From a virus (lineage: Duplodnaviria; Heunggongvirae; Uroviricota; Caudoviricetes): DNA of 64,000 nt. The position numbers were made by a program, and so were the translations under genes. Shown here piece by piece: positions 1-13,184 of the stretch (positions are counted from its first letter, which is position 1; every line of letters starts with the position of its first letter). The DNA lies in the IMG/VR virus record IMGVR_UViG_3300029841_000009, positions 4,544 to 68,543 of that record; one strand, written 5' to 3'. The notes below the pieces were generated by a model. That model was not told the DNA's origin and did not search any database. It saw only the letters and a list, made by a program, of their open reading frames with translations.

Positions 1-980
1 ATCCCCCAGTTATATGCTGCTCCGGTCAATATTTCTGAGCCGTACTTACCATACAGTTGATTTACATAGTCACTGGCAAGCATTTCATGCTGTTGTTCGT
101 CCGTAGGGTTGTATTCAACGCCACGTTTGGCCGCCAGTTCTTTCCCTGTGCCCGGCATTAACTGGTATTTCCCCTGGGCCCTCTCTCCAGAAGATGTTTT
201 CGGTCCTTCAAGAATACTACCATCAGGATTAAAGTGACGATCACCTGATTCAACAAGGCGTATGGCACGCATGTCCATGCCTCCAGAATCATTTTTCTGA
301 AACTGACCATTTAACCATCCTTCCGGGTTAGCAGCGGCATAATTCTTCGCCCGCATTTCTGTGGCACTGCGATCATCACTTTCTATTTCTTCCAGAATGC
401 GTTCTTGTGACCATCCCCTGGCTGCTCCATATCTGGCAATGGCTACCATTCTGGAATTTCTGGCTAAAGTGGCAGTTTGCGGGTCATTCCAGGCATCCGC
501 TTCATTTTGTATCCATAATTTTCTCGTTGCCTGATATTGCTCATCTTCATAGGCATTTGTCTGCCCTATCTCATGTCTGAGAACTCCAGTACTGAACTGA
601 ATTTTCTGTGTTCTGGCTTGTTGCAAAAACATATTTCTTGCTGCTTCATCAGTCAATGAAGCAGCTATTTCTTCCACATCCTGATCAAATCCAGATATGT
701 ACTCTTGCCCCTTACCAATCGCATTTTTGCCTTGTTGTGCATAAAAACCGGTTTGAGGGTTATAAAGACGTTCATTGCTGCGCTGATTAAGCTGAAGTAT
801 GGCATCCTGAGACAATGCAACATTCGCTTTCTGCCTGGCTTCACCATATGCCACCGCATACTGATCTGCGACATTCGCCAGCACCTGACCTGCTTGAGGA
901 ACATCGAAGATCTGAAAACCACCGGTTTGCACACCACGACTTTGCACCTGGCGTCCGGATGTAGTAGGAACAACAGGCAT
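1..980 (-). CDS. Internal virion / ejection protein with lytic-transglycosylase-like motif (N-terminal part; gene runs off the left edge)
   Basis: Manual translation from ATG at 980 (overlaps the TGA of the upstream gene as TGATG) gives an uninterrupted frame to position 1: MPVVPTTSGRQ...GKYQLMPGTGKELAAKRGVEYNPTDEQQHEMLASDYVNQLYGKYGSEILTGAAYNWG. Not in the ORF track because no stop lies inside the window. Follows gp13/gp14-like genes as in T7. Confidence 0.55.
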   Translation of the reverse strand, partial: MPVVPTTSGRQVQSRGVQTGGFQIFDVPQAGQVLANVADQYAVAYGEARQKANVALSQDAILQLNQRSNERLYNPQTGFYAQQGKNAIGKGQEYISGFDQDVEEIAASLTDEAARNMFLQQARTQKIQFSTGVLRHEIGQTNAYEDEQYQATRKLWIQNEADAWNDPQTATLARNSRMVAIARYGAARGWSQERILEEIESDDRSATEMRAKNYAAANPEGWLNGQFQKNDSGGMDMRAIRLVESGDRHFNPDGSILEGPKTSSGERAQGKYQLMPGTGKELAAKRGVEYNPTDEQQHEMLASDYVNQLYGKYGSEILTGAAYNWG

Positions 981-1546
981 CAGTAACCTCCTATTTTGAA
1001 TCGGGAGTCAGAATTCATAAAACCTGAGTTAGATAACATTGGCGTGTTTCCTTGCTTACTAATCGGATTGATACTTCCGCTACCCAACTTATATGCACCG
1101 TATGCTTTTAGTGGTGCCGTTAACAAAGTGCTGGTCATCGATGATTTAGCAGCCGACTGAGCAGCAGCCCCCTGTGCCTGAGCATTCATTCCCTGAACCT
1201 GATACCCATATGCCTCACGCTGAGCATTATTCACTGTCGTTAACGCATCAAGAGTGCCGAACTGAGCATTATCCGCAAAAACGTCAAGAGCTGTTCCGCT
1301 ACTTAATTCCGCACCGGTAGCCCCCATAGTGGCCGCCGCAGTGCCTGAGCGTTGACGCATTTCACGACGACGCTGATCCGCTTCAATATTCCCACGATTG
1401 ATTGAATCCTGTGCCTGAGCTTCAGCAATTTCAGCATTCCGATCAGCTATGGCTGACTGGTATTTTGCCTGCTTGCTCTGGCTGTACATTGACGCGGCTG
1501 TGGATGCCACTGTGACGGCAACCAAAGCGATGGCTGGGTTACACAT
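980..1546 (-). CDS. Internal virion protein (T7 gp14-like position), Ala/Gln-rich
   Basis: 188-aa ORF tightly coupled to neighbours in the tubular-protein operon; size and position match T7 gp14. Confidence 0.45.
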   Translation of the reverse strand: MCNPAIALVAVTVASTAASMYSQSKQAKYQSAIADRNAEIAEAQAQDSINRGNIEADQRRREMRQRSGTAAATMGATGAELSSGTALDVFADNAQFGTLDALTTVNNAQREAYGYQVQGMNAQAQGAAAQSAAKSSMTSTLLTAPLKAYGAYKLGSGSINPISKQGNTPMLSNSGFMNSDSRFKIGGY

Positions 1547-2010
1547 TATTTTCTCTCCATGTGAAATCTGTGGAAATTAAGACCAAGAGCACCATAAGGC
1601 GCGGCTTCTTCAAGCCTGAATCCAAGCCAGTGCAGCCATGCTTTGGCAACATGGTTTCGCTCGTCGACATAGTTTTCCAGGCGCGGATAAACTGCCAGCA
1701 TCTGCTGCAATACAGGGCGGCAGTGGCGAAGAAATGTCTTCTGATATTTTTCGATACGGCTGGTTCCGACCAGCCAGGGCGTACCATTGCCACCGATCAT
1801 TGACGCCGGAGATACGCCAAACATGGTTACCAGTTCTCCGTTCGCGAACCCTGACCAGGCCATAGTCGCAGTGCGCAGACCAACACGCAGCGCATCTTTG
1901 GTAGTCATCAGCGATACCGCATACAGTTCGTCAATATCAGCCTGACGAACATCCGGCAAAATCATCTGAAGATGCTCTTCGGTTGCGGGAATAATTTGAA
2001 CATCGATCAT
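1546..2010 (-). CDS. Internal virion protein (T7 gp13-like position)
   Basis: 154-aa ORF directly downstream of the tubular B gene, sharing its stop/start junction. Confidence 0.4.
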   Translation of the reverse strand: MIDVQIIPATEEHLQMILPDVRQADIDELYAVSLMTTKDALRVGLRTATMAWSGFANGELVTMFGVSPASMIGGNGTPWLVGTSRIEKYQKTFLRHCRPVLQQMLAVYPRLENYVDERNHVAKAWLHWLGFRLEEAAPYGALGLNFHRFHMERK

Positions 2011-4481
2011 CAGAATCCCCCAACAGTAAGGCGAGGAATAACGGCAAGAACAGACAGCGGCAACGGATCAAGCTGACGGATTTTTACACGTCCGTTTTTG
2101 CCCCAGTTACTGTCCAGTTTCACTTCTACTTTTCCGGTAGCATCATCAACAGGATCATCGTAGAACTCGAATTCACGCTGTGGATATTCGTACCATTTAC
2201 CGCCGGGCGTAGTCGCCCAGATGCCGCGACTGGCATTCACAACCAGAGTAACGGACGGGATCACCTGTTTTTTGTCCAGCAGCGTTTCCTGTCCGTTAAT
2301 GTTGATATCCAGTGTTTCGAATTCAGCAGTTATTGGCAGGCCGATGTGCACTACAGCCCCCGGTGATTCCAGCGTGACGGCACCTCCGGAAACCACTTTC
2401 TGTGGTTCCACGTTCGCATCAGAGAGAATGTTTACGGTCTGGCCTTCAAGATGAGACAGGCCTCCAAATGTCCGGCGCGCCATCTGCCAGTTCGTGGTGG
2501 CCACATTCCTGAGGGATGGCGGGACGTTCCTGTTAGCACGAACCACTACAGCGGTATTGCTGGTTACAGAAATAATGTCGCAACGTAATTCTTTTGACAC
2601 CTCATCGCCAGTATCAGGATCAGTTCCGGTATAAGGGAACTGTAGTTGCGCGCCGACATCACTACTGGTGAAGTACGCACCACCAGAAACACTGATTGTA
2701 TATTCCGCGCGGTAATCCCATTCGCCAGAACCACCAGTGATGATCATCGTTCTGTCAGACGTATTTCTTCCATCATAGCTAAGGCCAGAATCAACAAAGA
2801 AAGCATCTTCATCGCTGGTAAATAAACGGCTGGACAGTCGCTCGATGTATCTCACTGTTTGCCCGTTAACGGTTCGGTTAACGACGAAATACACCGCATC
2901 TTCATTGCCTTCGCTGATACTGCATGTGCTTTCATATTTTCCGGTACTGGATTGTGGTGCCCATGCAAAAACCTGCTGATCACGCAAATAGGTCATCACC
3001 AGTAATTTACCGTCATCACGGATGCAGAAGGCGCTGGAGTAAGGGACTATTGAGAAGCACCAGTCAACAATGCTGTGCTTCTGAAAAAGATGATTGGCAA
3101 GGATAGTAAGGTCGTTCCCCTGATAGCCGTCAACATCGAATGAGTAGGCCAGATCACGGACAACACTGCCTTTCTCCTGGACGAACAGAGCAATATTCGC
3201 CACGGCAATTGGTGGGACATTGCTCGAGCCATTTGATCCCTGAGAGCTGAATGCAAATGATGATGGGGTAAGCACTTTGTTCTGGTCGCCAGTGATGACG
3301 TACTCACCTCCGGAAGTCAGCGCCACCAGCGAACCAACATCAATCAGGTGGCGGATCTCATTAACCTGACGCCCGGCATAGGTGTAGATAATTCTGTCGT
3401 CATCCTGCGTAGGATTGCTTTTGCCAAAATCCTTATAATCCCCGGTACGGCTGGCCCAGATAGTCTGAGGAAACGCAGTCGATGCGGCGAAGTAAAGACG
3501 TTGTTGATAATAAACAACAGTGCCAGGATAACCATTAACACTGTTCCAGGCATATTTAGCCCATTTATAGCTGGCATTATCCTCGCCAACTACCTGCGAA
3601 GGGATATAGGAAATCACCTCGGCAGTTGCAGTAGTTCCATTTGCAGCAGAGATACGGGCAATGCCAAAACCACTGTGCAGATACTCCCACTCAATGCCGG
3701 TATCATCATCACCGGATCCGCCCCAGCCATCCCATGATGTGCCTTCTGTATGCGAAGGGCGCAAAGTGCCTGTTTTGCCTACTGTAACGGCGCGATAGTA
3801 GTTACTGTCTGCACGGCGAATATCGCCAATTGACGTACTCTTACTGGTTTCCCATACCGGCACAGAATCCACTGCAGGCTGTTCCAGATAGAACAATTTG
3901 CCTACCTGCTCCGCGCCAAAAATAGAGGCGCTTGCCGTTAACGTAATTGTCCCGGTGCTGGCGCTGGCATAAACCGTCACTGACTCGTCAATATTGATAT
4001 CTTCAAATGGTCCGTTCTTCGTTACCACATCAACCAGTTGCCAGTTGTCATGCGCATAGCGACGCAACTCTTTCGGCGGGTATGCCGGATGAACAAGCGT
4101 AAGCACGTCGGCGCTTTGCGTGAATTTAATTCGGAACAGATCGGCTTCAGTATATGGCGTGGCAATTTCATAAATAACATTGCTGCTGTTCAGCACCAAC
4201 GCACCATCTTTGATAACGCGCATGTACTGGTGTCCGAACTCCAGAGCATAGGTCTGAACCGTCGAGAACTGGAACGGGATCAGGCGGCATTTCCGATTTG
4301 GGTATTTGGCGGCACCGACAAAACGCGTACCTGGTCGATTCTCAACGCCGCCATACTGCCGCACGATAAAGTTATCGCACTTGCGCAATGCCACCTGGTA
4401 CTTCGCCATGTCAATACGCCCGTACAACGACGGTCCAATCTCACCACCGGCAAAGCTGGGCTGGATCCAACTGATAGCCAT
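2010..4481 (-). CDS. Tail tubular protein B-like (T7 gp12-like)
   Basis: 823 aa; N-terminus MAISWIQPSFAGGEIGPSLYGR resembles the gp12 N-terminal pattern; follows the tubular A gene. Confidence 0.55.
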   Translation of the reverse strand: MAISWIQPSFAGGEIGPSLYGRIDMAKYQVALRKCDNFIVRQYGGVENRPGTRFVGAAKYPNRKCRLIPFQFSTVQTYALEFGHQYMRVIKDGALVLNSSNVIYEIATPYTEADLFRIKFTQSADVLTLVHPAYPPKELRRYAHDNWQLVDVVTKNGPFEDINIDESVTVYASASTGTITLTASASIFGAEQVGKLFYLEQPAVDSVPVWETSKSTSIGDIRRADSNYYRAVTVGKTGTLRPSHTEGTSWDGWGGSGDDDTGIEWEYLHSGFGIARISAANGTTATAEVISYIPSQVVGEDNASYKWAKYAWNSVNGYPGTVVYYQQRLYFAASTAFPQTIWASRTGDYKDFGKSNPTQDDDRIIYTYAGRQVNEIRHLIDVGSLVALTSGGEYVITGDQNKVLTPSSFAFSSQGSNGSSNVPPIAVANIALFVQEKGSVVRDLAYSFDVDGYQGNDLTILANHLFQKHSIVDWCFSIVPYSSAFCIRDDGKLLVMTYLRDQQVFAWAPQSSTGKYESTCSISEGNEDAVYFVVNRTVNGQTVRYIERLSSRLFTSDEDAFFVDSGLSYDGRNTSDRTMIITGGSGEWDYRAEYTISVSGGAYFTSSDVGAQLQFPYTGTDPDTGDEVSKELRCDIISVTSNTAVVVRANRNVPPSLRNVATTNWQMARRTFGGLSHLEGQTVNILSDANVEPQKVVSGGAVTLESPGAVVHIGLPITAEFETLDININGQETLLDKKQVIPSVTLVVNASRGIWATTPGGKWYEYPQREFEFYDDPVDDATGKVEVKLDSNWGKNGRVKIRQLDPLPLSVLAVIPRLTVGGF

Positions 4482-5086
4482 CAGGACAACCTCGCAATGG
4501 TAAACTCGTCAACCGGTGGCTGTGGTTCCTGTGATTCATTCTGGCTATGCGAGCCAGCACTAAGAATCACGCGATTGTACATATTGAGAGCAAATGTACC
4601 GAGATCCGCATTCCCAGTCAGCGCCATGTTAATGGCTGCCGCAAGACGCCAGGCCAGCGCCTCCATAAAAATGGCATCAAACATGTTTACATCTGAAACG
4701 CGAGAGACATACTTGAGCCATGCCTGCGGCTGGTCTGTGTAGATCAATTTTCCTGTTCCGTTGGTGTCTGCACCAACTTCGTACTGAACGCGCATTGCTG
4801 CTGTTGGATTGCGTACACCAGGAAGCATAATTTCAGTAATGCGCAGACAATCTGACGGGTACTGGTACGCATATTCCCAGTCAGGCGGTGGATTGCTCGT
4901 ATCTGCAAGCGCCACGCGTTTGGTAGCAAAGTTCCAGTCAAAATCAGAAAGCACAGCATCACGGCAGGCCTCAAAGTGCAGCGAACATTCCCCCGCTTCC
5001 TTGCTGGCTTCCGTCAGGCTGTTAATGCTGCGGCTGTTGCCAATATTGGACAGCGCACGATTGCAGATCTCTACTACAGAGGCCAT
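4481..5086 (-). CDS. Tail tubular protein A-like / head-tail adaptor (T7 gp11-like)
   Basis: 201 aa; N-terminal pattern ...ALSNIG...W.F resembles gp11-type adaptors; size and order fit. Confidence 0.55.
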   Translation of the reverse strand: MASVVEICNRALSNIGNSRSINSLTEASKEAGECSLHFEACRDAVLSDFDWNFATKRVALADTSNPPPDWEYAYQYPSDCLRITEIMLPGVRNPTAAMRVQYEVGADTNGTGKLIYTDQPQAWLKYVSRVSDVNMFDAIFMEALAWRLAAAINMALTGNADLGTFALNMYNRVILSAGSHSQNESQEPQPPVDEFTIARLS

Positions 5087-5142
5087 AAGTTTCTATACTC
5101 CTGCAATAAAGGGGCCGAAGCCCCTTGTCTGATTCGCGAGGC

Positions 5143-5487
5143 TTACACGCCCAGTTCTTTACGCTTATCTGCGATCTTCTCGCGTAGCGTTTCGGCTTTG
5201 GCGTTATGGTGTGGCTTCTCGTTAAAGAGCAATTCGTACTCTTCACGGAGCTTATCCAGTTCACCATCATCTGACACATCGTTGATGATTTTGGTGCTGG
5301 TTGCTGCCATTGACACCTTTCCTGCAACTTTTGCTTTTGCCTGTCTGGCTGCATCGTTAACAGGTTCCAGTGCGCTACCAGGCTCACCTTCGTATTCGAT
5401 TTCTGCCCCCTCCGGCCACAGAGTGTTATGGATATGAGAGAGGCGCAGAACGCGGTATCTTGGTTTCTCACCTGACATCGATATCAC
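5143..5487 (-). CDS. Hypothetical protein in virion module
   Basis: 114-aa ORF between capsid-associated genes and tubular A; charged C-terminus. Confidence 0.35.
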   Translation of the reverse strand: MISMSGEKPRYRVLRLSHIHNTLWPEGAEIEYEGEPGSALEPVNDAARQAKAKVAGKVSMAATSTKIINDVSDDGELDKLREEYELLFNEKPHHNAKAETLREKIADKRKELGV

Positions 5488-5488
5488 C

Positions 5489-5926
5489 TTAACCAGTTAC
5501 TTTTGAGCGGATCGGGTACGGCGTATTGGCATCAACATCCAGACTGATACCCGCAGTGAATTTGCCAGCCGTTAGTGGGCCAGTTGCGACGGAGTAGTTA
5601 ACACGCAGATATCGCTGAACACCGGCAGGCACCTTTGCAGAAACAACTCGTTTACCTGCTGTCAGGGCGGTCTTTGCCAGTGCGCCACTATCATAAATAG
5701 TGGTCCATGAGCTGTTATTCTCACTCGTCTGCAACTGGATGTTTACAGTTGCATCACCGCTTGCCGCGGCGGCTGCGTTAACCAGCGCCCAAAACTCAAG
5801 CGGGTAACCCACGCCGATATCACGACGTTTTCCGTCAATTGGACCGAGATCGATTACGTCAGTAGAAGCCGCGGTATTCGTAACCGCCTGAGCTTCGGAG
5901 AACATCAACAGTTTGTCGGTGATCAT
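5489..5926 (-). CDS. Hypothetical capsid-associated protein (possible decoration / minor capsid)
   Basis: 145-aa Ala/Thr/Gly-rich ORF immediately downstream of the major capsid gene. Confidence 0.35.
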   Translation of the reverse strand: MITDKLLMFSEAQAVTNTAASTDVIDLGPIDGKRRDIGVGYPLEFWALVNAAAAASGDATVNIQLQTSENNSSWTTIYDSGALAKTALTAGKRVVSAKVPAGVQRYLRVNYSVATGPLTAGKFTAGISLDVDANTPYPIRSKVTG

Positions 5927-5977
5927 CTTCTTTCTCCATTAGTGGGTCTGTTACGACCCACAGGTTAATAACAGGCG

Positions 5978-6970
5978 TTACACCACGCGGGCTTCTGTTT
6001 CCAGAAGCGCATCAGTTTCACGGATTGGTACACCACGGAATGAAGTCCACCACTCGCCTTCAGTCTCTTTTACGCTGATAGCCAGAGATGTTTTCTCCAG
6101 AGATTGCAGATCAAGAGCCTGGCCTACAGTGCGGTTCATGTAGAACACCGGGCGGCCCATGCCACGGTTTGGAATGCGATGTAGTGCTTTAACCATCAAC
6201 TTCGCAATATTTGCGGCAGAGGATGGTTCTGAAATATTGCTGACATCGATGTTTGCAATGCGAACAACATAACGCCAGTCACGCAGAGCAAGTCCGTTAT
6301 CCCATTTGTAATGGGTGCGATAGCCTTCGTACTTGCCGCCATTAGCATCTTCCAGTGTCACCTGGCCTTTATCTTCCATCTGGATGCCAGCCTTCTGCCC
6401 TTTCGGGAAGATGCCATGCACGGTGTTTTCGCCCCACACCACTAACCAGATTGAGGTGTTATCTGTACCCGTGCCACCAGCATCAATGATGTTCTGAGCA
6501 TTACCCGCAGACAGGCTGGAATAGCGGGAGGACAGTCCCATAAACTGCTGAGGGTTAACGCTGGAATCACCATAAAACAGCGTCTGCGCCATCTGCTGAT
6601 TCATCGCTTCAATAAATGCGCGGTCTTCAGACAGGCGGAATTCGGCGGTATTGCCGTTCAGATCAGCCAGTGACTTATCGACTTCCGCATAGGTTTCCAG
6701 CATGCCAACGGAATCGGTTACCTGCACTGTGGTTGATTTGCTTGGCTGTACGCCATAGTTCAGCAAACGCCAGGTAGCTGAAGGTAAACCAGAACGAATG
6801 GTGGTTCGGTGTCCGGTAGGAAGGTTCCCTTCGACAAAAGGCATATCCTGAAGGATCGGGTTAGTTTGACCGAGAAGCTCGATAATCTTATCGACTTTCC
6901 CGTTTGGATCGACGCGCTTACCCCAGTCAGCCAGCGTTAGCGCAGTTAAGCCTTTAACAGCCATTGTCAT
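5978..6970 (-). CDS. Major capsid protein
   Basis: 330 aa, between scaffold and tail genes; size and position of T7 gp10-like capsid protein. Confidence 0.65.
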   Translation of the reverse strand: MTMAVKGLTALTLADWGKRVDPNGKVDKIIELLGQTNPILQDMPFVEGNLPTGHRTTIRSGLPSATWRLLNYGVQPSKSTTVQVTDSVGMLETYAEVDKSLADLNGNTAEFRLSEDRAFIEAMNQQMAQTLFYGDSSVNPQQFMGLSSRYSSLSAGNAQNIIDAGGTGTDNTSIWLVVWGENTVHGIFPKGQKAGIQMEDKGQVTLEDANGGKYEGYRTHYKWDNGLALRDWRYVVRIANIDVSNISEPSSAANIAKLMVKALHRIPNRGMGRPVFYMNRTVGQALDLQSLEKTSLAISVKETEGEWWTSFRGVPIRETDALLETEARVV

Positions 6971-6978
6971 TTCCTCTC

Positions 6979-7680
6979 TTATTTGCCATAGAGCACTTCG
7001 GCCGCACTACGCTGGCCTTCATTACCACCGGTGACCATGCCATCTTCAGACATCGCCTTTCCGATTTTCACGAACGTTTTGACCAGATCAGGGTGATTAC
7101 CCAGCCCGGTGGTGTTCAGATATTCTTTGAGTTCAGGTGTCCCGAACTGGTCAAGCGCACGCTGTGCGGCGCTAAGGTTAGAAATCAACTTGTCGCCACC
7201 GATTTCTTTGTCGGCTTTTACATCCGCTGCCCACTGCTCGGTTGTTTTCTGCCAGGCTTCTGCCTGGCGCTGCTGAACACCTGCCAGAATCTTCGGATAA
7301 GCATCAACCAGCTTTTGCGCTTGCTCGTTGGTCAGGTTTAGTTCTCGCGCCACCGGCTCGAATTCCTTCAACGCTTCTGTATCCAGCTCTACGCCTTCGG
7401 CAGCCTGAAACTCGTACTTTTCAGGCGCACCCTCTGGTTTATCGCCGTCCTTTTTTTCATCCTGCTTATCGTTTTCAGGCTTTTTGTCATCAGCAGGTTT
7501 ATCGCCATCAGCAACAGGTTGTGGCTTATCACCTTCCTGTTGTGATGGATCACCAACTGGAGCAGGGTTATCACCTGCAGGCGCTGACGGTTCTGACGCA
7601 GCCGGAGCTGCTCCACCATCGACTGGTTGCTCATTGCAAAGACGGCGATACAGCAAACGCTCAAATAAATTCATGATCAC
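6979..7680 (-). CDS. Scaffolding protein
   Basis: 233 aa, highly acidic with a Pro/Ala/Asp/Lys-rich low-complexity N-terminus and helical C-terminus; lies between portal and capsid. Confidence 0.6.
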   Translation of the reverse strand: MIMNLFERLLYRRLCNEQPVDGGAAPAASEPSAPAGDNPAPVGDPSQQEGDKPQPVADGDKPADDKKPENDKQDEKKDGDKPEGAPEKYEFQAAEGVELDTEALKEFEPVARELNLTNEQAQKLVDAYPKILAGVQQRQAEAWQKTTEQWAADVKADKEIGGDKLISNLSAAQRALDQFGTPELKEYLNTTGLGNHPDLVKTFVKIGKAMSEDGMVTGGNEGQRSAAEVLYGK

Positions 7681-7973
7681 TCCTGTTCACTGGCCTCTTT
7701 GGCCATCTTCAAATACTGTTCAGGGCAATGCGCCATAACGCGCTGAAACAGTTCCAGCGCCAGATTGCGTTGCCCCTCATTAAATGCCATTGCCATAGCG
7801 TCCATCGGTGAGATAGCGGAAAACACACGGCCTTTCTCCAGCACCGACCAGACAACGCGACGCCCCTGTTCACTGCTCATGACAAAGCGAATGTCATCAA
7901 TTTCACGCTGTGCCATGTCACGTTGCTTACGGGCGTTTTCTTCTTTCAGTTGATCATCTTCGTAATCTGTCAT
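7677..7973 (-). CDS. Hypothetical small protein
   Basis: 98-aa ORF between portal and scaffold, overlapping both. Confidence 0.35.
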   Translation of the reverse strand: MTDYEDDQLKEENARKQRDMAQREIDDIRFVMSSEQGRRVVWSVLEKGRVFSAISPMDAMAMAFNEGQRNLALELFQRVMAHCPEQYLKMAKEASEQE

Positions 7974-9649
7974 TGTGATTGCCCACCCTGACCACTAACT
8001 GCATTCGCCATAGCTGACAAAACACTCGGATCCGAAGTTTTAGCTTCGCTTAGCGTCTTGGCACCCTGTGCCGCCGCCATCCCCATCGCCATCATTTGTT
8101 GCTGCTGTTGTTGCTGTGCCCGTTGCTGGCGAGCCTGCTCAACCTGTTCCTGCGGAACAATGACGGTTGGAGACACTCCGGACATATCAGCGAATGCATC
8201 GATCGCCTGATCAACGTTGAGTTTGTCGAGAGCTTCTGGTTTCGCTTGCGCAAGTTGACCAATGAAGTTAACCGTGGACGCCAGACTGGACAGGCCGATA
8301 GACTTCTGCGCCTGAGCCATGACGGAAATGTATTCGACCTTCAGGGGCATACCTTCCATCACGTCTGGCGGTGGCGGCAGCATGTTTTTACGCACCATCA
8401 TCGAGAAAGAGCGGTCAATGAGAGGATTAAGACATTCGTCGTTCAGACGCTCCAGAACCGGCCCCAACATCAGAAGTTTTTCTTCTTTCATTTCGATCAC
8501 CGCTTCAACAGGCATCGAGCGGGTATTGATGTTCTGCAACATCATGAACAGATCGACAAAGTAGGCGCTGTTAATGATTTGACGAGTGTCCTGAATGTCT
8601 GCCACCAAATCTGCTGTACTGGGGTTAACCAGATAAGCAGGCCTGAAACCATCCTGACCAGTAATCTGATCGATATACGTGATGTCGCCAGGAAGAAGGG
8701 AGGCACGCTGATTCTTGAGGGAAGTCGGAGCAACCATCGGCGGATTGGTGGCTTTATCAATCAACTGCGACTTGCGCTTCTGGAGAAGCTGCAATGCCTT
8801 AACAGGTCCAAGCGCCAGCATACCCGGGCATGATGATCCATAAACATCTTCGCCGTTAACTTCCCAGCGCGGGGCCATAATTGGAAACTCATCGAATCCG
8901 GACTCACGCAACAACTTGTCGTTATCGCCACCAACCTCGTAATAAACCGATTTGAATGGCTTGTTCTTGCTATCCAGCTTCGATGTATCGCGGTCAATGT
9001 TCGGGTAAACCGAATGCATCACTTCAATCCACTTCTCGTAGGTTCCGCTTTCCCACATGCTTTTTACGGATTCGCTGACGTTATTTAGCCCGAACTCCTG
9101 AACAAGCTGACGAACAGTCATAGAGAACTTGCGAAAACAGGTGTCCACACTGCCACGAGGTGAGTTAGCCAGGTAGTAACTGCCTATCGGGAATGGCATT
9201 GTGCGAATGATGTCCTCGTCATCCTCCAGCACTGCCATTGCACCAGTGCTGTATGTGCCGAGGCTTCCGTATAACTGCGGCAGCGACTGATAGAGATTCG
9301 ACTTATTGAACATATCGTTCATGCGGTTCTGCACCGCCTCAAGCCACAACTTAACAGGGCCATAATCCATCATTTCAGGATCTGGCGTAGCCAGGCGAAA
9401 CCACGGACGCGCGGGGCTTGTGATGCCTGACATCATGCCGCTGGCGAGAGTGCGCGCCGCCATAGTCCCGGTCGAATCAATAATGCGTGTATTGCGTCGA
9501 TCGTTACGGTTGACCTCAGAAGTCAGAAAGCGGGAACCACGCGGGTTGATGTAATCACTCAACTCGCGCCAGTGCGGCTCGAACGACTGACGCTCGCTTT
9601 CAAGTTGTGCGAACTGTTTGTTCAATCGCTCTTTAGTTGTTTCCGCCAT
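7970..9649 (-). CDS. Portal / head-to-tail connector (T7 gp8-like)
   Basis: 559 aa; C-terminus QQQQQQMMAMGMAAAQGAKTLSEAKTSDPSVLSAMANAV resembles the Gln/Ala/Met-rich C-terminus of T7-type connectors. Confidence 0.75.
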   Translation of the reverse strand: MAETTKERLNKQFAQLESERQSFEPHWRELSDYINPRGSRFLTSEVNRNDRRNTRIIDSTGTMAARTLASGMMSGITSPARPWFRLATPDPEMMDYGPVKLWLEAVQNRMNDMFNKSNLYQSLPQLYGSLGTYSTGAMAVLEDDEDIIRTMPFPIGSYYLANSPRGSVDTCFRKFSMTVRQLVQEFGLNNVSESVKSMWESGTYEKWIEVMHSVYPNIDRDTSKLDSKNKPFKSVYYEVGGDNDKLLRESGFDEFPIMAPRWEVNGEDVYGSSCPGMLALGPVKALQLLQKRKSQLIDKATNPPMVAPTSLKNQRASLLPGDITYIDQITGQDGFRPAYLVNPSTADLVADIQDTRQIINSAYFVDLFMMLQNINTRSMPVEAVIEMKEEKLLMLGPVLERLNDECLNPLIDRSFSMMVRKNMLPPPPDVMEGMPLKVEYISVMAQAQKSIGLSSLASTVNFIGQLAQAKPEALDKLNVDQAIDAFADMSGVSPTVIVPQEQVEQARQQRAQQQQQQQMMAMGMAAAQGAKTLSEAKTSDPSVLSAMANAVSGQGGQSQ

Positions 9650-9663
9650 TTCAATGACTCCGG

Positions 9664-9870
9664 TTACTGACCAAGCAGCGTTTTACCGCTGGTATTAGCG
9701 GTTGATGTGTCGCCCTGAGAACCGGTAAGCAGCGTAGAACTACGACCAGCAGCAGCGCGACGGCGACGAGTTTCTTCGTCGCGGGCATCAACAACGGCGG
9801 CATCCTGCTCCTGTGGTGCTGCCTGAACTTCTGGTGTTGCAGGCACTGATGGTGAGCTACCCATGCACAT
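9664..9870 (-). CDS. Hypothetical small low-complexity protein
   Basis: 68-aa ORF ending 15 nt before the portal start; Ala/Thr/Gln-rich; coding status uncertain. Confidence 0.25.
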   Translation of the reverse strand: MCMGSSPSVPATPEVQAAPQEQDAAVVDARDEETRRRRAAAGRSSTLLTGSQGDTSTANTSGKTLLGQ

Positions 9871-10297
9871 ATCAATGACTCCGTACGCAATTAAATTATT
9901 ACCAATTTAACCACATATGATTTATTTATCGTAGATAGTTGACATTTAACGCACAAATTATTACCTTTCAGGTAACCAAAGAATTCATTCCGGTTACTAA
10001 CCTGACTGGCTTGTCGTTAAATTGAACAGGTGGAGTGAGCTTTTATTTTGAGCAGTACGGCGTATGGCACATGCGCCGATAGCGGTCTGGATACGTTTAA
10101 GGGGCACCCTCCCTGGCTGTGGCAAACGAACCAGGTAGCCGGAATGTGCAAGTCGAGCGGTTTTATTCCGCGCACGGGGATTCACCATCCCGGCGATTCG
10201 GTGTGACGCCTCGGAAGAGACGAGGGTACAACGATGAGAGCATTTATGGAGCCGCGACAAAGTGTGGCGCCTTAACAGGCTAAGTGCTCTCAGCGTT

Positions 10298-10374
10298 GTG
10301 GCATTAGCTCAGTCGGACAGAGCAACCGCCTTCTAAGCGGTTGGTCGCAGGTTCGAATCCTGCATGCCACGCCA
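10298..10374 (+). tRNA. tRNA-Arg (anticodon UCU)
   Basis: Cloverleaf read by hand: acceptor GTGGCAT/ATGCCAC, D-arm GCTC..GAGC, anticodon stem ACCGC/GCGGT with loop CTTCTAA, T-arm GCAGG-TTCGAAT-CCTGC, discriminator G, CCA. Confidence 0.8.
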
Positions 10375-10537
10375 GAATCACGCCTAAGGACCGTGATGCC
10401 AGAAGTTCCAGGTGCTTGGCGGTGATGGTTTCCCTTGAAGGACTATCACCACCCTTTTTACAGCAGGACGCCATTGCGATGACTTCATGCTGTAAACCAG
10501 TACAGCCACGGAAGGCATAACTCATTGCTTCCAGTTC

Positions 10538-10561
10538 GCCCGATTCGCCGGGCATTTTTTT
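10538..10561 (+). terminator. Rho-independent terminator downstream of the tRNA
   Basis: GCCCG-attcgc-CGGGC hairpin followed by ATTTTTTT. Confidence 0.5.
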
Positions 10562-10572
10562 AAGGTGAGATT

Positions 10573-10944
10573 ATGAACGACCAGCAAATCGAAAAAGAAA
10601 TCGTTGAGAAAGGCAAAACGGCACCGCGCGTTACGCCAGACCATATCGAAGGCATTATTGCTCAGGAGGCATATTTCACAGCAGAAGATGGTGCCTTTGG
10701 CAAAGCCATAAAAGAGAAACATACTGGCGGAGAGGTAAACTACCAGCCGCACGAATCACTTTCTCTGCTGACGTTCTGCGTCCTGGTGCTGCGCAACGGC
10801 TTCACCGTCACCGGAGAGAGCGCCTGTGCAAGCCCGGAAAACTTTGATGCGGAAATTGGTCGGAAGATTGCCCGGCAGAATGCTGTAAACAAAATCTGGA
10901 TGCTCGAAGGTTACTTGCTGAAGCAGAAGCTAAGCGAGCAATAA
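10573..10944 (+). CDS. Hypothetical moron protein (opposite orientation to the structural operon)
   Basis: 123-aa ORF with strong SD (AAGGTGAG) 4 nt upstream of the ATG; sits with the tRNA between TerL and portal on the opposite strand. Confidence 0.5.
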   Translation: MNDQQIEKEIVEKGKTAPRVTPDHIEGIIAQEAYFTAEDGAFGKAIKEKHTGGEVNYQPHESLSLLTFCVLVLRNGFTVTGESACASPENFDAEIGRKIARQNAVNKIWMLEGYLLKQKLSEQ

Positions 10945-11034
10945 CGCCGTGACATGTCACAATCAGCCAGCCTATGAGCTGGCTTTGTTTTATCCTCACC
11001 AGAGGATATCAGCAGCATTATCCCATCCAGCGGA

Positions 11035-12510
11035 TTAAGCATAGGGATCGTAATCTGTGATGGCTTTGCCTTGCTGGTTCTGCTGCCCGGGAATTCGCAG
11101 ACGCTTCGACACAGGGAACGCAAACGTCAGCAGTAGCGCATCGCCTTTACCAGGAGAACGCCCAAGTCGCTCTTTGATATCTTCCTTCGGTTCGATAACG
11201 ATTTTACCGTCCACGCGAACTTTGTACTCTGCCGTCGACAGGTCGTCCGCTGTTTCCTGGTCATCCAGCATGCCGCCGAGCCTCAGCCATGTCTTGCATG
11301 AGTTGAACATCTCCCCACGCTTGTTGAGCATCTGCGGGTCAGTAGACGCGCCACCGAACGGAACAAGTTGCCATGTACGACCCCAGCCGTCACCGATTGA
11401 CTTCAAACCGGTTCCGTAACCGAAGTCGATGAACACCGCGTCAGCCTGATACTGGTCTTCAAAGTCAGCGATACGCTTCGCCATAATCAGATCGTCGGTA
11501 GTCTTGTTGCCAGTCCACAGCACCTTACTGTGTAGCCCCTGCCGCAGGTATATCACCGCGTCATCAACGCCTGAATATGCCGGGTCAACACCGATTATCA
11601 CCGGAGCATGTGCAACCTGCGCAGCGGTTACCACCCGTTTCATTGCCTCGTCAGTAAGACCGGTAGGGATAAACTGCAATTCAGATGCATCAGGGAATAT
11701 GCCACGCACACGGATTTTAACGAAGTCGCTATCTTCCCCGTAGTCATCAACCCATTTCTGCAACTGCTGTTTGTTGGTGCCTTCCACCGTCCTGCTGTCA
11801 ATCTGCGCAGTTTTCCAGCGGTGTTTGTATTTGCGGAAACATTCACGGAAACGCCCGGTGTTACGTGTAGGGTTTCCGAAAGCCACCCAGATAATCTCAG
11901 TGTCTTCGTCCGTTAGCGCACCCTCGGCAACTTCCCACACCAGATCCGCAATGTTCGACGCTTCATCAAATACCACAATGATGCGTTTACGCTCGTTGTG
12001 TAGTCCGGCGAATGCCTCAGTGTTGTGCTCAGACCAGGGGATTGCGTCAGCTCGCCACCGCTTGTCGTGCCCAGGGTCATTGCTGTACATCGCGGTAGCG
12101 GTACAGGTAAACCAGTCTTTCGTGATAGCAAGGTTTGACCACTTGATAATTTCCGGCCAGGTCTTCGTTCGTAGCTGGTTGTCGGTGTTGGCGGTCACCA
12201 CGACCTTACAATCCTCGCAAGTGGACATGCCCCAGTTGATCAGCATTGAGATGAATGCGGATTTACCAATACCGTGACCAGAAGCACGTGCCAGCATAAG
12301 CGGCTGATATCGCGTCTCTGGATTCTGCAGGTGATCACGTATCTCTCGGAACGCATCAGCCTGCCACTGACGTGGGCCGGTGGCATGTGCCAGTTCAGTC
12401 CCCTCTTCCCCCCATGGGAACGCATAGAGGGCATAGCCAAGCGGATCGTGAGTGAACCCTGCAATATCCTCGATTAACTGCTCTTCAGGAGATAACGCTG
12501 TATCTGTCAC
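11035..12510 (-). CDS. Terminase large subunit
   Basis: 491 aa; Walker-A-like GHGIGKS near the N-terminus; directly downstream of TerS. Confidence 0.8.
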   Translation of the reverse strand: MTDTALSPEEQLIEDIAGFTHDPLGYALYAFPWGEEGTELAHATGPRQWQADAFREIRDHLQNPETRYQPLMLARASGHGIGKSAFISMLINWGMSTCEDCKVVVTANTDNQLRTKTWPEIIKWSNLAITKDWFTCTATAMYSNDPGHDKRWRADAIPWSEHNTEAFAGLHNERKRIIVVFDEASNIADLVWEVAEGALTDEDTEIIWVAFGNPTRNTGRFRECFRKYKHRWKTAQIDSRTVEGTNKQQLQKWVDDYGEDSDFVKIRVRGIFPDASELQFIPTGLTDEAMKRVVTAAQVAHAPVIIGVDPAYSGVDDAVIYLRQGLHSKVLWTGNKTTDDLIMAKRIADFEDQYQADAVFIDFGYGTGLKSIGDGWGRTWQLVPFGGASTDPQMLNKRGEMFNSCKTWLRLGGMLDDQETADDLSTAEYKVRVDGKIVIEPKEDIKERLGRSPGKGDALLLTFAFPVSKRLRIPGQQNQQGKAITDYDPYA

Positions 12511-13184
12511 TGATTGCCATCCTGACGTTCTTTCAGTCTCTTCCTGGCTGCCGCTATGCGATCAGCAATTGTCACATTCACATTAACATCCAGGCGTTCT
12601 TTGAATGCGTTGACGTCGACGTGCTTACCAATCAGTTCGAGGTTCTTCACCTTGTCAGGCCATTTAATTTTTTTGAGGATGCCAACCAGCTCTTTCTCGT
12701 CTCCACGGCCTTCGAACATGTCGGCCAGTTCGAAACCTGTCAGGTACTGCCGCCAGACCTTAGGCCATTCCGAGACCGGCTTGATGCTCATATCGTCGTT
12801 GAGAATGTCAATCACGTCCATCTGGTCGATCTCCACCAGGCGCATGAGAACGTAATCAGCACTGACGCGCATTCGTTTGTTGCGCTCCTCCATCAACTCG
12901 GCAATCCGTTTCTGAATGCGTTCATCGCGCATCATGACACTGGCTTTAACTGCCGCTGTATTTGGGGAGAATCCTGCATTAATCGCAGCCTGAGTCTGGT
13001 TTTCAGGCGTTTTGATGTATGACTGGCAATAAGCCTCCTGCATTGCTGTTAGTGGCTTAAATTGCGTTGATTTGCGTTTATAGGTTTTAGGTTCAGCAGG
13101 CATCATAACCACCGTGGTAATAGTTACCGTTGTGGTAATAGTACCATGCAAAATAAAGCCGCCATAGTTGGCGGCAGTATTCAA
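12507..13184 (-). CDS. Terminase small subunit (true start probably near 13106)
   Basis: Helical DNA-binding N-domain pattern (QEAYCQSYIKTPENQTQAAINAGFSPNTAAVKAS) of small terminases; the poly-Thr N-terminal extension in the ORF is probably untranslated. Confidence 0.65.
   Translation of the reverse strand: MNTAANYGGFILHGTITTTVTITTVVMMPAEPKTYKRKSTQFKPLTAMQEAYCQSYIKTPENQTQAAINAGFSPNTAAVKASVMMRDERIQKRIAELMEERNKRMRVSADYVLMRLVEIDQMDVIDILNDDMSIKPVSEWPKVWRQYLTGFELADMFEGRGDEKELVGILKKIKWPDKVKNLELIGKHVDVNAFKERLDVNVNVTIADRIAAARKRLKERQDGNQ

What the first reader, a model, noticed from the sequence alone, without database searches (positions are those of the whole stretch)
9650..11034. tRNA-Arg(UCU) and an opposite-strand moron inserted between TerL and portal
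The TerL and portal genes are separated by about 1.4 kb holding a plus-strand tRNA-Arg(UCU) with its own terminator and a 123-aa plus-strand gene with a strong SD, both antiparallel to the structural operon. AGA/AGG are rare codons, so the tRNA may support late-gene translation; the moron has no recognisable function.
Basis: partly seen in the sequence, partly recalled or inferred. Interest (0 to 1): 0.5.

Follow-up and report, generated by a model that had tools for sequence, protein, structure and literature searches.

The report
Phage counter-defence cassette with unannotated leader RNA
The gap between the terminase and portal genes of this phiV10/epsilon15-like prophage holds a working tRNA-Arg and an anti-CBASS (Acb4-family) sponge gene, both downstream of a conserved, pseudoknotted RNA that no database annotates although about a third of complete E. 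coli genomes carry it.

Summary
The TerL–portal gap (9650-11034) holds a plus-strand tRNA-Arg(UCU) and a plus-strand 123-aa gene with a strong Shine-Dalgarno.

- The "moron" has a recognisable function. It belongs to Pfam PF13876, the Acb4 anti-CBASS cyclic-dinucleotide sponge family, and profile and fold matches to SPO1 Acb4 agree.
- The tRNA is intact, but the late genes hardly use AGA/AGG. The early genes use them about four times more often.
- The gene has no room for its own promoter. Its Shine-Dalgarno directly follows the second of two conserved terminators.

A ~245-nt structured RNA (10054-10301) lies directly upstream of the tRNA. It has five helices and a pseudoknot supported by covariation. 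Rfam 15 has no match. It occurs in 1,840 of 5,426 complete E. coli genomes. It sits in early-operon leaders: just after pL in N-less lambdoid phages, in the P1 ban operon, and here.

My best reading is a single plus-strand counter-defence and translation-support unit whose leader RNA acts in cis on transcription, probably as an antiterminator. That last step is inferred, not shown.

The parts
9664..9870 (-). 68-aa ORF directly upstream of the portal gene. It resembles epsilon15 gp3 and phiV10 p06. Its function is unknown, and it belongs to the structural operon, not to the plus-strand cassette.
   Evidence: ORF list. Annotated in phiV10 and typing phage 9. PHROG 831, E 2e-36.
9939..9975 (+). 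Promoter-like TTGACA (9939-9944), 17 nt, TACCTT (9962-9967), overlapped by the perfect palindrome TTACCTTTCAGGTAA (9961-9975). The palindrome is an operator-like site in a divergent control region.
   Evidence: Sequence. The equivalent site is annotated as 'repressor' plus IHF in the epsilon15 record. TTACCN5GGTAA occurs 5 times, all within the phiV10-like part of the window, against 1.3 expected. The consensus promoter scan did not call this promoter, so it is an inference.
10022..10049 (+). Second promoter-like site, TTGAAC-16-TATTTT, which would start transcription at about 10055, the first base of the RNA core.
   Evidence: Read from the sequence. It was not called by the scan and is not conserved in the Klebsiella and Enterobacter relatives. 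Weak evidence.
10054..10231 (+). Core of the conserved structured leader RNA. It has hairpin P1 (loop GGCAC), variable hairpin P2, a variable P3 region, and hairpin P3b whose loop UUCACCA pairs with a downstream GGUG to form a pseudoknot. Hairpin P4 has loop GAAGAGA. About 55 columns are invariant.
   Evidence: Alignment A2 of 26 diverse copies. 97% of cells are paired, 10 of 24 pairs have compensatory changes, and slid controls give 29-52%. Covariance model R1 scores 150.8 bits here. No Rfam family matches.
10226..10301 (+). P5, a long-range helix of about 20 bp (GGUACAACGAUGAGAGCAUU ... AGUGCUCUCAGCGUUGUGG) with a hypervariable tip. Its last 4 nt overlap the 5' end of the tRNA.
   Evidence: Duplex energies of about -22 to -34 kcal/mol in 26 of the 43 sequence clusters, with compensatory variants and tips of 2-91 nt.
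10298..10374 (+). tRNA-Arg, anticodon UCU, with discriminator G and CCA encoded.
   Evidence: ARAGORN. Rfam tRNA 73.3 bits. 63 of 77 nt match K-12 argU, with identical loops and only compensatory changes in the stems.
10377..10397 (+). Small conserved hairpin AUCACG-CCUAAGGAC-CGUGAU. It follows the tRNA here and follows a tRNA-like element in relatives.
   Evidence: Conserved in tRNA-bearing and tRNA-less relatives.
10418..10459 (+). Terminator T1: GGCGGU...ACC(A/G)CC stem followed by CUUUUUACA.
   Evidence: Scan. Present with conserved flanks and compensatory stem changes in both epsilon15-like and lambdoid loci.
10538..10561 (+). Terminator T2: GCCCGAUUCGCCGGGC followed by AUUUUUUU. The Shine-Dalgarno AAGGTGAG (10562-10569) of the cargo gene follows at once.
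   Evidence: Scan. The T2-SD-ATG junction is conserved in front of different cargo genes in relatives.
10573..10944 (+). 123-aa Acb4-family gene (PF13876, 'Gp49 family'), a predicted cyclic-dinucleotide sponge acting against CBASS.
   Evidence: Pfam E 8e-35. PDB 9e4w_A E 0.006 for the single sequence and 6e-6 for the profile. AlphaFold2 model pLDDT 83. The 13 best Foldseek matches are all 9e4w, with probability 1.00. The link between the family and its function comes from PMC11722364.
10965..10994 (+). Terminator T3, which ends the plus-strand unit 40 nt before the TerL stop codon.
   Evidence: Scan. Annotated as a rho-independent terminator in phiV10.

Best explanation
The 1.4-kb gap is one plus-strand accessory transcription unit set into the packaging and head operon of a phiV10/epsilon15-like (Uetakevirus) prophage.

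Its order is:
1. an operator-bearing control region;
2. a ~245-nt pseudoknotted leader RNA (core plus P5);
3. tRNA-Arg(UCU);
4. a small hairpin;
5. two tandem intrinsic terminators, T1 and T2;
6. a Shine-Dalgarno and an Acb4-family gene;
7. terminator T3.

Shown here:
- The tRNA is intact.
- The protein belongs to the Acb4 sponge family.
- The RNA is a real, strand-specific structured element of a widespread, unannotated family.
- The cargo gene has no space for its own promoter.
- Relatives carry other nucleotide-signal sponges (Tad2-like) in the same slot.

Inferred:
- The unit is an early, repressor-controlled lytic unit.
- The tRNA is cut out of the transcript. RNase P cleavage at its 5' end would also define the 3' end of the leader RNA.
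- The tRNA supplies AGA decoding for the AGA/AGG-rich early genes, and may replace host tRNA-Arg if a defence nuclease cleaves it.
- The leader RNA acts in cis on the transcribing RNA polymerase as a processive antiterminator, working like HK022 put or Bacillus EAR. Only transcripts that carry it would pass T1 and T2 (and Rho) to express the sponge.
- The sponge then sequesters cGAMP-type CBASS signals.
For: tRNA:
- 73 bits, loops identical to argU, compensatory stem changes, CCA encoded.

Acb4:
-, plus PMC11722364. In that paper PF13876 is the Acb4 family, and all 8 tested homologues bind 3'3'-cGAMP.

The slot holds counter-defence cargo:
- Tad2-like genes (PF11195) follow the same T2-SD junction in Klebsiella and other relatives.

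The RNA is real:
- 97% of cells are paired, 10 pairs are compensatory including one pseudoknot pair, and slid controls give about 30-50%.
- G-U pairs fix the plus strand as the functional strand.
- P2 and P3 vary in length by amounts not divisible by three, so the region is not coding.

The RNA sits as a leader in early operons:
- In phage cdtI the order is cI stop, terminator, pL (TTGACA-16-CATAAT, 11 of 12), then the core 42 nt after the predicted start, then T1, then the first gene.
- A CI/LexA-like repressor gene lies directly upstream on the same strand in about 20 of the 43 sequence clusters.
- In P1 the RNA sits in the C1-controlled ban operon between trnI and ban.
- Every adjacent tRNA is on the same strand: 29 tRNA-Arg downstream and 17 tRNA-Ile2 upstream.

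Terminators:
- T1 and T2 are conserved with the RNA.
- Within 1 kb downstream there are 47 terminator-like sites on the RNA's strand and 22 on the other strand.

Codons:
- Early genes have AGA+AGG at 17 per 1000 codons, late genes at 4.7 per 1000.
Against: - No expression data exist for any member. The promoters are only consensus-like, and the scan tool did not call either one in the window.
- The palindrome may control the minus-strand gp3/portal promoter rather than the plus-strand unit.
- The RNA is not related to HK022 put. The model finds nothing in HK022.
- cdtI has only one copy, at pL, whereas put has copies at both pL and pR.
- 14 of 40 loci show no terminator-like site within 1 kb downstream.
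- In P1 the RNA lies directly before ban with no terminator between them.
- A constitutive antiterminator would also read through T3 into antisense TerL.
- Three of the six aligned SPO1 Acb4 ligand-contact residues differ (E49 to T78, Y57 to A86, T70 to I99). The ligand range of this protein is therefore unknown.
Confidence: 0.5

Rival explanations
1. The leader RNA is a self-contained gene for a stable RNA. It is cut free by RNase P at the tRNA or tRNA-like element and acts in trans, for example as a decoy or sponge for a host protein or a defence factor. T1 and T2 simply end the RNA-tRNA unit, and the Acb4 gene is expressed only by leaky readthrough.
For: - About 55 invariant columns suggest binding to a conserved host machine.
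- P5 ends exactly at the 5' end of the tRNA.
- tRNA-less relatives keep a tRNA-like element with an acceptor-like stem and a T-arm-like hairpin at the same place. That would preserve an RNase P site.
- T1 travels with the RNA into lambdoid contexts.
- The neighbouring cargo is counter-defence.
Against: - Many members have no terminator after the RNA and run straight into a Shine-Dalgarno and ORF. Examples are L071, and P1 before ban. That is how a 5' leader behaves, not a separate sRNA gene.
- In lambdoid phages a strong T1 after a stand-alone RNA would shut off the whole pL operon unless something overcomes it.
Confidence: 0.25
2. The leader is a riboswitch-like sensor. Its pseudoknotted core binds a small molecule or an immune or physiological signal, and this sets whether T1 and T2 terminate. 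Expression of the sponge and of early-left genes would thus be tuned to cell state.
For: - Size, pseudoknot and clustered invariant junction nucleotides resemble aptamers.
- Terminators lie downstream.
- The core segment GGCG(A/G)U resembles the 5' flank of T1 (GGCGGU), so it could compete for the ACCGCC strand of T1. This is an inference.
Against: - T1 lies 190-500 nt from the core, with P5 and a whole tRNA in between. Known expression platforms are not built that way.
- Many members lack any nearby terminator.
- No ligand is suggested by the neighbouring genes.
Confidence: 0.1
3. The tRNA compensates for rare AGA/AGG codons in late structural genes. The 123-aa gene is an autonomous moron of unknown function, expressed from the prophage.
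For: - The tRNA decodes a codon that is rare in E. coli (general knowledge).
- The gene is flanked by terminators and varies among relatives. That is moron-like.
Against: - Late genes contain 17 AGA/AGG in 3,629 codons, and the major capsid and scaffold genes have none.
- The gene belongs to the Acb4 family.
- There is no space for a promoter between T2 and the Shine-Dalgarno.
- An anti-CBASS sponge is useful during lytic growth, not in a lysogen.
Confidence: 0.08
4. The main role of the tRNA is counter-defence rather than codon supply. It would be a nuclease-resistant substitute for host tRNA-Arg(UCU) when an anticodon nuclease or another tRNA-targeting defence depletes the host copy.
For: - It shares a transcription unit with a sponge gene, in a slot that holds Acb4- or Tad2-like genes.
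- All 14 differences from argU lie in the acceptor and anticodon stems, the D- and variable-region positions next to them are also changed, and the D, anticodon and T loops are otherwise kept. That pattern could alter recognition by a nuclease while keeping ArgRS identity elements.
- Phage tRNAs that defeat PARIS and retron Eco7 are precedents (general knowledge).
Against: - No defence nuclease specific for tRNA-Arg(UCU) was identified here.
- The AGA/AGG-rich early genes already give a sufficient reason for the tRNA.
- 85 of 131 copies of the RNA module have no tRNA.
Confidence: 0.2

Closest known systems
phiV10 / epsilon15 genome region (phiV10 p03-p06; epsilon15 gp50 and gp3)
   Same: Same genes in the same order at 96% identity in phiV10 and O157 typing phages 9 and 10. 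The tRNA-Arg is annotated in some of those records.
   Different: Those records call the 123-aa protein hypothetical and annotate nothing, or a spurious ORF, over the RNA. Epsilon15 itself lacks the tRNA and keeps only a 76-nt remnant of the RNA core (45 bits).
SPO1 Acb4 (anti-CBASS 4; PF13876; PDB 9e4w)
   Same: Same Pfam family, with a profile match (E 6e-6) and a fold match (probability 1.00). The contact residues F48, F62 and I66 are conserved.
   Different: About 20% identity. This protein has an extra ~25-residue N-terminal helical extension. E49, Y57 and T70 are replaced. Ligand range was not tested, but the paper reports that homologues from phages of Gram-negative hosts also bind 3'3'-cAA.
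HK022 put RNAs (cis-acting processive antiterminators)
   Same: Both are non-coding RNAs placed just downstream of pL in lambdoid phages that have no N gene, upstream of terminators (PMC9378689).
   Different: put is ~70 nt with two stems and has copies at pL and pR. This RNA has 162 or more conserved positions, five helices and a pseudoknot, and there is one copy per genome. The model finds nothing in HK022. Any likeness is functional and hypothetical only.
Bacillus EAR (eps-associated RNA) antiterminator
   Same: Both are larger pseudoknotted RNAs that can sit inside an operon, as the present RNA does in the P1 ban operon. This comparison rests on general knowledge.
   Different: There is no sequence or Rfam match. 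The hosts are in different phyla.
P1/P7 c4 and P4 CI RNAs (leader-derived, RNase P-processed phage regulatory RNAs)
   Same: All are phage regulatory RNAs embedded in early or immunity operon leaders and associated with tRNA-like processing signals (general knowledge). Here P5 abuts a tRNA or a tRNA-like element.
   Different: Rfam C4 and isrK match elsewhere in cdtI but not on this RNA. No antisense target was found.
Stx-phage 933W ileZ-argN-argO tRNA cluster
   Same: Both involve a rare-codon tRNA-Arg(UCU) carried by a temperate coliphage next to accessory cargo and terminators (general knowledge).
   Different: That cluster lies downstream of pR'/tR' in the late operon under Q antitermination. 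This one lies in a separate plus-strand unit behind a structured leader RNA.

Membership tests
Functional tRNA-Arg(UCU) | Cloverleaf that scores well above threshold, with anticodon UCU | tested here: met
   ARAGORN calls tRNA-Arg(tct). Rfam RF00005 scores 73.3 bits against a gathering score of 29.
Functional tRNA-Arg(UCU) | D, anticodon and T loops (carrying A20 and C35, the ArgRS identity elements by general knowledge), discriminator and 3' CCA preserved; changes in stems compensatory | tested here: met
   Alignment with K-12 argU gives 63 of 77 identical. The anticodon and T loops are identical, the stem changes are compensatory, and G73 plus CCA are encoded.
Functional tRNA-Arg(UCU) | Expressed, processed and aminoacylated | not testable with these tools
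   Needs a Northern blot, an acid gel or tRNA-seq.
Acb4 anti-CBASS sponge (PF13876) | Match to PF13876 above the curated cut-off | tested here: met
   119.6 bits against a cut-off of 27, E 8e-35, covering the full-length profile. All listed homologues carry PF13876.
Acb4 anti-CBASS sponge (PF13876) | Sequence and fold similarity to the solved SPO1 Acb4 structure: a three-strand beta core flanked by helices | tested here: met
   phmmer E 0.006 and profile E 6e-6 to 9e4w_A. The AlphaFold2 model has pLDDT 83 with strands 29-36, 67-73 and 78-83 between helices. Foldseek ranks 1-13 are all 9e4w, with probability 1.00 and TM 0.59-0.68.
Acb4 anti-CBASS sponge (PF13876) | Ligand-contact residues of SPO1 Acb4 | tested here: inconclusive
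   F48, F62 and I66 are kept as F77, F91 and I95. E49, Y57 and T70 are replaced by T78, A86 and I99. K36 and K81 lie outside the aligned stretch.
Acb4 anti-CBASS sponge (PF13876) | Tetramer that binds 3'3'-cGAMP-type signals and rescues phage from CBASS | not testable with these tools
   Needs EMSA or ITC and plaque assays. In PMC11722364, 8 of 8 tested homologues bound 3'3'-cGAMP.
Moron (autonomous promoter-gene-terminator unit expressed from the prophage) | Own promoter directly upstream of the gene | tested here: not met
   The T-tract of T2 ends at 10561, the Shine-Dalgarno is 10562-10569 and the ATG is at 10573. No promoter-like site lies between T1 and the ATG.
Moron (autonomous promoter-gene-terminator unit expressed from the prophage) | Own terminator, and variable presence among otherwise syntenic relatives | tested here: met
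   T3 lies at 10965-10984. The slot holds Acb4-like, Tad2-like or unknown genes in relatives.
HK022 put antiterminator RNA | About 70 nt, two-stem structure, homologous sequence | tested here: not met
   Model R1 finds no match in the HK022 genome at E up to 1. The architecture also differs (PMC9378689).
HK022 put antiterminator RNA | Located just downstream of the early promoters, with one copy each at pL and pR | tested here: inconclusive
   The position at pL is met. There is only one copy in the whole cdtI genome.
HK022 put antiterminator RNA | Makes RNA polymerase resistant to terminators in cis | not testable with these tools
   Needs reporter or in vitro transcription assays.
Any curated Rfam 15 family | Covariance-model match over 10054-10301 | tested here: not met
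   No match at E up to 10 in the window, and none at E up to 0.5 over the homologous core in five other loci.

The most novel reading that the evidence does not exclude
The ~245-nt pseudoknotted leader is a new class of RNA that acts on the host transcription machinery, working like put or EAR but structurally unrelated to them. It would serve as the N-independent antitermination device of many lambdoid, P1-like and epsilon15-like phages. It would also mark the start of early counter-defence operons, so that the uncharacterised genes right behind it are candidate anti-defence genes.
Probability: 0.3. Interest if true: 0.8.

Novelty: new variant of a known kind. Interest (0 to 1): 0.6.

Why it matters
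As stated, the finding (a phage tRNA plus a small accessory gene) is ordinary. The tRNA is already annotated in GenBank records of close relatives, and the protein family was shown in 2024 to be an anti-CBASS sponge.

What matters is the element both of them hang on. A large, covariation-supported RNA with a pseudoknot occurs in 34% of complete E. coli genomes, in prophages and in P1-like plasmids. It always lies in the leaders of repressor-controlled early operons. It is absent from Rfam, from RefSeq annotation and from the searchable literature.

If it controls transcription elongation, it would explain how many N-less lambdoid phages get past their early terminators.

Whatever its mechanism, it is a compact sequence flag for early operons. 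Here the cargo behind it includes Acb4- and Tad2-type sponges. It therefore gives a cheap guilt-by-association route to new anti-defence genes.

Tried and rejected
- **Rfam.** Three searches, including a permissive one at E up to 10 on 700 nt, found nothing on the RNA.
- **HK022 put.** I fetched the whole HK022 genome and model R1 found no match. Membership is rejected; the functional analogy is kept only as a hypothesis.
- **Literature search by sequence.** Searching for the invariant motifs gave no relevant paper.
- **Literature searches by topic.** Searches on N-independent lambdoid antitermination, the P1 ban transcriptome and prophage structured RNAs gave nothing on this element.
- **svsR.** This prophage sRNA near cI turned out to be a different 77-nt RNA inside the 3' end of cI.
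- **Coding potential of 9871-10297.** Rejected. The substitutions are compensatory in stems, and P2 and P3 differ in length by amounts not divisible by three.
- **A DNA-level site (origin, pac, att).** Rejected as the main reading. The G-U pairs are strand-specific and the element is always co-oriented with transcription.
- **The single allowed genome-contig scan.** I used too loose a pattern. Only 6 of the first 100 loci were confirmed by R1 at a high score: Kosakonia, Phytobacter, Escherichia whittamii and one locus whose title was not listed. Taxonomic breadth is therefore poorly sampled.
- **boxA-like UGCUCUUU in the 3' strand of P5.** I noted it but did not pursue it, because that strand is base-paired and covaries.
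Full report
**1.
- The portal ORF (7970-9649, minus strand; Pfam Head-tail_con, E 3e-187) and TerL (11035-12510, minus strand) bracket exactly the stated 9650-11034.
- ARAGORN and Rfam call a tRNA-Arg(tct) at 10298-10374 on the plus strand, at 73.3 bits against a gathering score of 29.
- The 123-aa ORF at 10573-10944 on the plus strand has AAGGTGAG 4-11 nt before its ATG.
- Terminator-like sites lie after the tRNA, just before the ORF and after the ORF.
- The window here is a phiV10/epsilon15-like (Uetakevirus) prophage.
- The same 1.4 kb is 96% identical in phiV10 and in O157 typing phages 9 and 10, whose records already annotate the tRNA.
It also missed the content of the 430-nt non-coding stretch upstream of the tRNA.

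**2. The tRNA is intact, but the stated reason for it is wrong.**
- It is 63 of 77 nt identical to K-12 argU.
- The anticodon and T loops, discriminator G73 and the encoded CCA are identical to argU.
- The differences in the acceptor and anticodon stems are compensatory. This is a tRNA under selection, not a pseudogene.
- The 13 late genes (980-13184) contain 9 AGA and 8 AGG in 3,629 codons. The major capsid and scaffold genes have none and the portal gene has one.
- The early genes at 13.2-20.7 kb contain 23 AGA and 16 AGG in 2,296 codons, about four times the late-gene density.
- If codon supply is the role, it is for early genes, not late ones.

**3. The "moron" has a recognisable function.**
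- It matches Pfam PF13876 (Phage_gp49_66) at E 8e-35.
- Chang et al. (PMC11722364) showed that PF13876 is the family of SPO1 Acb4. Acb4 is a tetrameric sponge that sequesters 3'3'-cGAMP-type CBASS signals, and all eight homologues they tested bound 3'3'-cGAMP.
- The window protein hits the SPO1 Acb4 structure 9e4w at E 0.006 alone, and at E 6e-6 as a profile of 36 homologues.
- An AlphaFold2 model (pLDDT 83) has the expected three-strand core between helices.
- The 13 best Foldseek matches in the PDB are all 9e4w chains, with probability 1.00 and TM 0.59-0.68. The next hits are noise.
- Of the six aligned SPO1 ligand-contact residues, F48, F62 and I66 are kept. E49, Y57 and T70 are replaced. 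Family membership is therefore firm but ligand range is open.
- Relatives carry other cargo behind the same conserved junction. These are Tad2-like (PF11195, Thoeris anti-defence) proteins of 173 and 98 aa, and several families with no Pfam match.
- The slot is therefore a counter-defence cargo position.

**4. The gene is not an autonomous unit.**
- Two terminators lie between the tRNA and the ORF.
- T1 is 10418-10459: a GGCGGU...ACCACC stem followed by CUUUUUACA.
- T2 is 10538-10561: GCCCGAUUCGCCGGGC followed by AUUUUUUU.
- The Shine-Dalgarno follows the T-tract of T2 with no gap.
- T1 keeps its flanks while its stem changes by compensation. It occurs in both epsilon15-like and lambdoid loci. 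The T2-SD-ATG junction is conserved in front of different genes.
- The Acb4 gene can therefore be transcribed only by reading through T1 and T2 from upstream.

**5. What lies upstream is a structured RNA.**
- BLAST of 9871-10300 showed that 10057-10300 is about 81% identical to non-coding DNA in lambdoid phages (cdtI, mEp460, Stx2c phages). The first ~165 nt is about 79% identical to P1 and P7.
- The 131 copies collected fall into 43 clusters at 92% identity.
- I aligned 26 diverse copies as A2. The alignment supports:
  - hairpin P1, with invariant loop GGCAC;
  - hairpin P2, which varies from 28 to 50 nt;
  - a variable P3 region;
  - hairpin P3b, whose loop UUCACCA pairs with a downstream GGUG to form a pseudoknot;
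  - hairpin P4, with loop GAAGAGA.
- Across these helices 97% of cells are paired and 10 of 24 pairs carry compensatory changes. One of these is a C-G to A-U swap in the pseudoknot. Partners slid by 1-3 columns give 29-52% pairing.
- Frequent G-U pairs make the plus strand the functional strand.
- After P4, 26 of the 43 sequence clusters have P5, a covarying long-range helix of about 20 bp with a hypervariable tip of 2-91 nt.
- In the window the core is 10054-10231 (150.8 bits with model R1). P5 runs to 10301 and overlaps the first 4 nt of the tRNA.
- No Rfam 15 family matches it, either here at E up to 10 or in five other loci.
- A full-text search for the invariant motifs found no relevant paper.

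**6. Where the RNA lives.**
- In complete E. coli genomes, 1,840 of 5,426 have a match, with 2,474 places in all. 1,920 places are on chromosomes and 554 on plasmids.
- 1,472 genomes have a match covering at least 80% of the core plus P5.
- RefSeq annotates nothing under the matches except the abutting tRNA.
- There are three recurrent contexts, always co-oriented with transcription.
- **(a) Lambdoid phages.**
  - In about 20 of the 43 sequence clusters a CI/LexA-type repressor gene (Peptidase_S24 plus HTH) ends 100-150 nt upstream on the same strand.
  - In cdtI the order is cI stop, terminator, pL (TTGACA-16-CATAAT, 11 of 12), then the RNA core 42 nt after the predicted start. T1 and the first early-left gene follow.
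  - No N gene is annotated in cdtI, Stx2a_WGPS2 or mEp390.
- **(b) P1-like phage-plasmids.** The RNA lies between trnI and ban in the C1-controlled ban operon.
- **(c) Epsilon15-like phages.** The RNA lies between portal and TerL, as here.
- Of the 131 copies, 29 have tRNA-Arg(UCU) about 165 nt downstream, 17 have tRNA-Ile2 directly upstream, and 85 have no tRNA. All these tRNAs are on the same strand as the RNA.
- tRNA-less members keep, at the tRNA position, a tRNA-like element. It has an acceptor-like GUGGUG/CACCAC stem, a D-arm-like hairpin and a T-arm-like hairpin, followed by the same small hairpin AUCACGCCUNAGGACCGUGAU.
- There is one copy per genome in cdtI and none in HK022. Epsilon15 itself keeps only a 76-nt remnant and has no tRNA.

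**7. The control region in the window.**
- A perfect palindrome TTACCTTTCAGGTAA (9961-9975) corresponds to the 'repressor' and IHF sites annotated in epsilon15.
- TTACCN5GGTAA occurs five times, all in the phiV10-like part of the window, against 1.3 expected. Two of the sites lie just upstream of TerS.
- TTGACA-17-TACCTT (9939-9967) overlaps the palindrome on the plus strand.
- TTGAAC-16-TATTTT (10022-10049) would start transcription at the first base of the core.
- The scan tool called neither promoter, so both remain inferences. The palindrome may equally serve the divergent gp3/portal promoter.

**8. Mechanism.**

Shown:
- an intact tRNA;
- an Acb4-family protein;
- a real, strand-specific structured leader RNA;
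- two conserved terminators between the RNA and the cargo gene;
- no promoter space in front of the cargo gene.

Inferred:
- There is one early plus-strand unit.
- The tRNA is excised, and RNase P cleavage at its 5' end would define the 3' end of the leader.
- The leader acts in cis on the transcribing polymerase, so that transcripts carrying it pass T1, T2 and Rho. Rho would otherwise be expected to act on the long untranslated leaders seen in this family.
- Acb4 then soaks up CBASS signals.

Support for a transcription-elongation role:
- the position just after pL in N-less lambdoid phages;
- terminators that travel with the RNA;
- a two-fold excess of same-strand terminator-like sites within 1 kb downstream, 47 against 22.

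Against that role:
- There is no homology to put.
- There is a single copy per genome.
- 14 of 40 loci have no nearby terminator.
- In P1 there is no terminator before ban.
- It is unclear what would happen at T3.

I give the cis-antitermination step about 0.3-0.35. I give the overall description of the cassette about 0.5 when that step is included.

Rivals:
- a processed, trans-acting stable RNA (0.25);
- a riboswitch-like sensor (0.1);
- a counter-defence role for the tRNA (0.2, not exclusive of the main reading);

**9. Verdict.**
- The finding as written is an accurately observed, already-sequenced feature of phiV10-like phages.
- Two of its three interpretive claims fail.
- The tRNA and the Acb4 gene are known kinds.
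- The leader RNA family is, as far as Rfam 15, RefSeq annotation and the searchable literature show, undescribed. It is common, structurally elaborate and consistently placed at the head of early phage operons. That is what raises the interest of this locus above ordinary.

Noticed in passing
L007, L060, L063, L074, L086, L099 (about 10-170 nt after P5); equivalent to window 10298-10374: Where other members lack the tRNA-Arg, they carry a tRNA-like element at the same position. It begins GUGGUGAAUGCGCAGGCUGAUGCGC, has a variable middle of 60-130 nt, and ends GCCGGAGAUCAGCGCCGGC-CACCAC-AACC. The acceptor-like stem covaries (GUGGUU/AACCAC in L099). ARAGORN does not call it a tRNA. It may preserve an RNase P site.
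   Followed up: partly
loci L014, L035, L063, L076, L125, L126 (140-aa family); L045 (86 aa); L060 (138 aa); L082 (143 aa); L012, L116, L131 (282-292 aa); L007 2983-3354 (123 aa): Several protein families with no Pfam match occupy the same T2-SD-ATG cargo slot that holds Acb4-like or Tad2-like sponges in other phages. By position they are candidate anti-defence genes.
   Followed up: partly
L004 (P1, AF234173) 2498-2681: Phage P1 carries the RNA core, without P5, between trnI (tRNA-Ile2) and ban in the C1-controlled ban operon. The P1 record annotates nothing in that interval. The 554 places on E. coli plasmids are probably this P1-like version.
   Followed up: partly
L003 2310-2385 (epsilon15 NC_004775 2650-2725): Epsilon15 itself has only a 76-nt remnant of the RNA core (45 bits) and no tRNA, but keeps a terminator directly before gp50. 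Its record places a predicted 'RNaseIII' site (locus 2216-2315) that just overlaps the start of the remnant.
   Followed up: partly
window 13106-13138, 22306-22320, 23800-23814: Further copies of the operator-like palindrome TTACCN5GGTAA occur here. Two adjacent copies lie just upstream of the likely true TerS start. This matches epsilon15's annotated repressor sites at the heads of the late operons, and suggests direct repressor control of structural operons in this phage group.
   Followed up: partly
window 10001-10045: The sequence just upstream of the core (CUUGUCGUUAAAUUGAACAGGUGGAGUGAGCUU) resembles the tip and 3' strand of P5 in the L078 and L010 copies (GUCGUUAAAU...GGCGGAGUGCGCUC). 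It looks like a relic of a second module or of recombination between modules.
   Followed up: no
window about 30400-63600, including tRNA-Met(cat) at 59801-59876 on the minus strand: A second long block of minus-strand ORFs looks like another prophage. It has large 930- and 934-aa ORFs, its own tRNA with anticodon CAT, and very high AGA use (11.8 per 1000 codons). It carries no copy of the leader RNA.
   Followed up: no
L005 277-465 (phage cdtI), minus strand in the locus: Rfam C4 antisense RNA (68 bits) and isrK (60 bits) lie side by side on the pR side of the cdtI immunity region. This phage therefore carries a c4-type RNA system as well as the new pL leader RNA.
   Followed up: no
L010 2631-2750 (Stenotrophomonas phage BUCT708): There is a sub-threshold Rfam RprA match (50 bits against a gathering score of 70, E 9e-4) over the end of P5 and the T2-like terminator. 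It is probably driven by the terminator hairpin.
   Followed up: no
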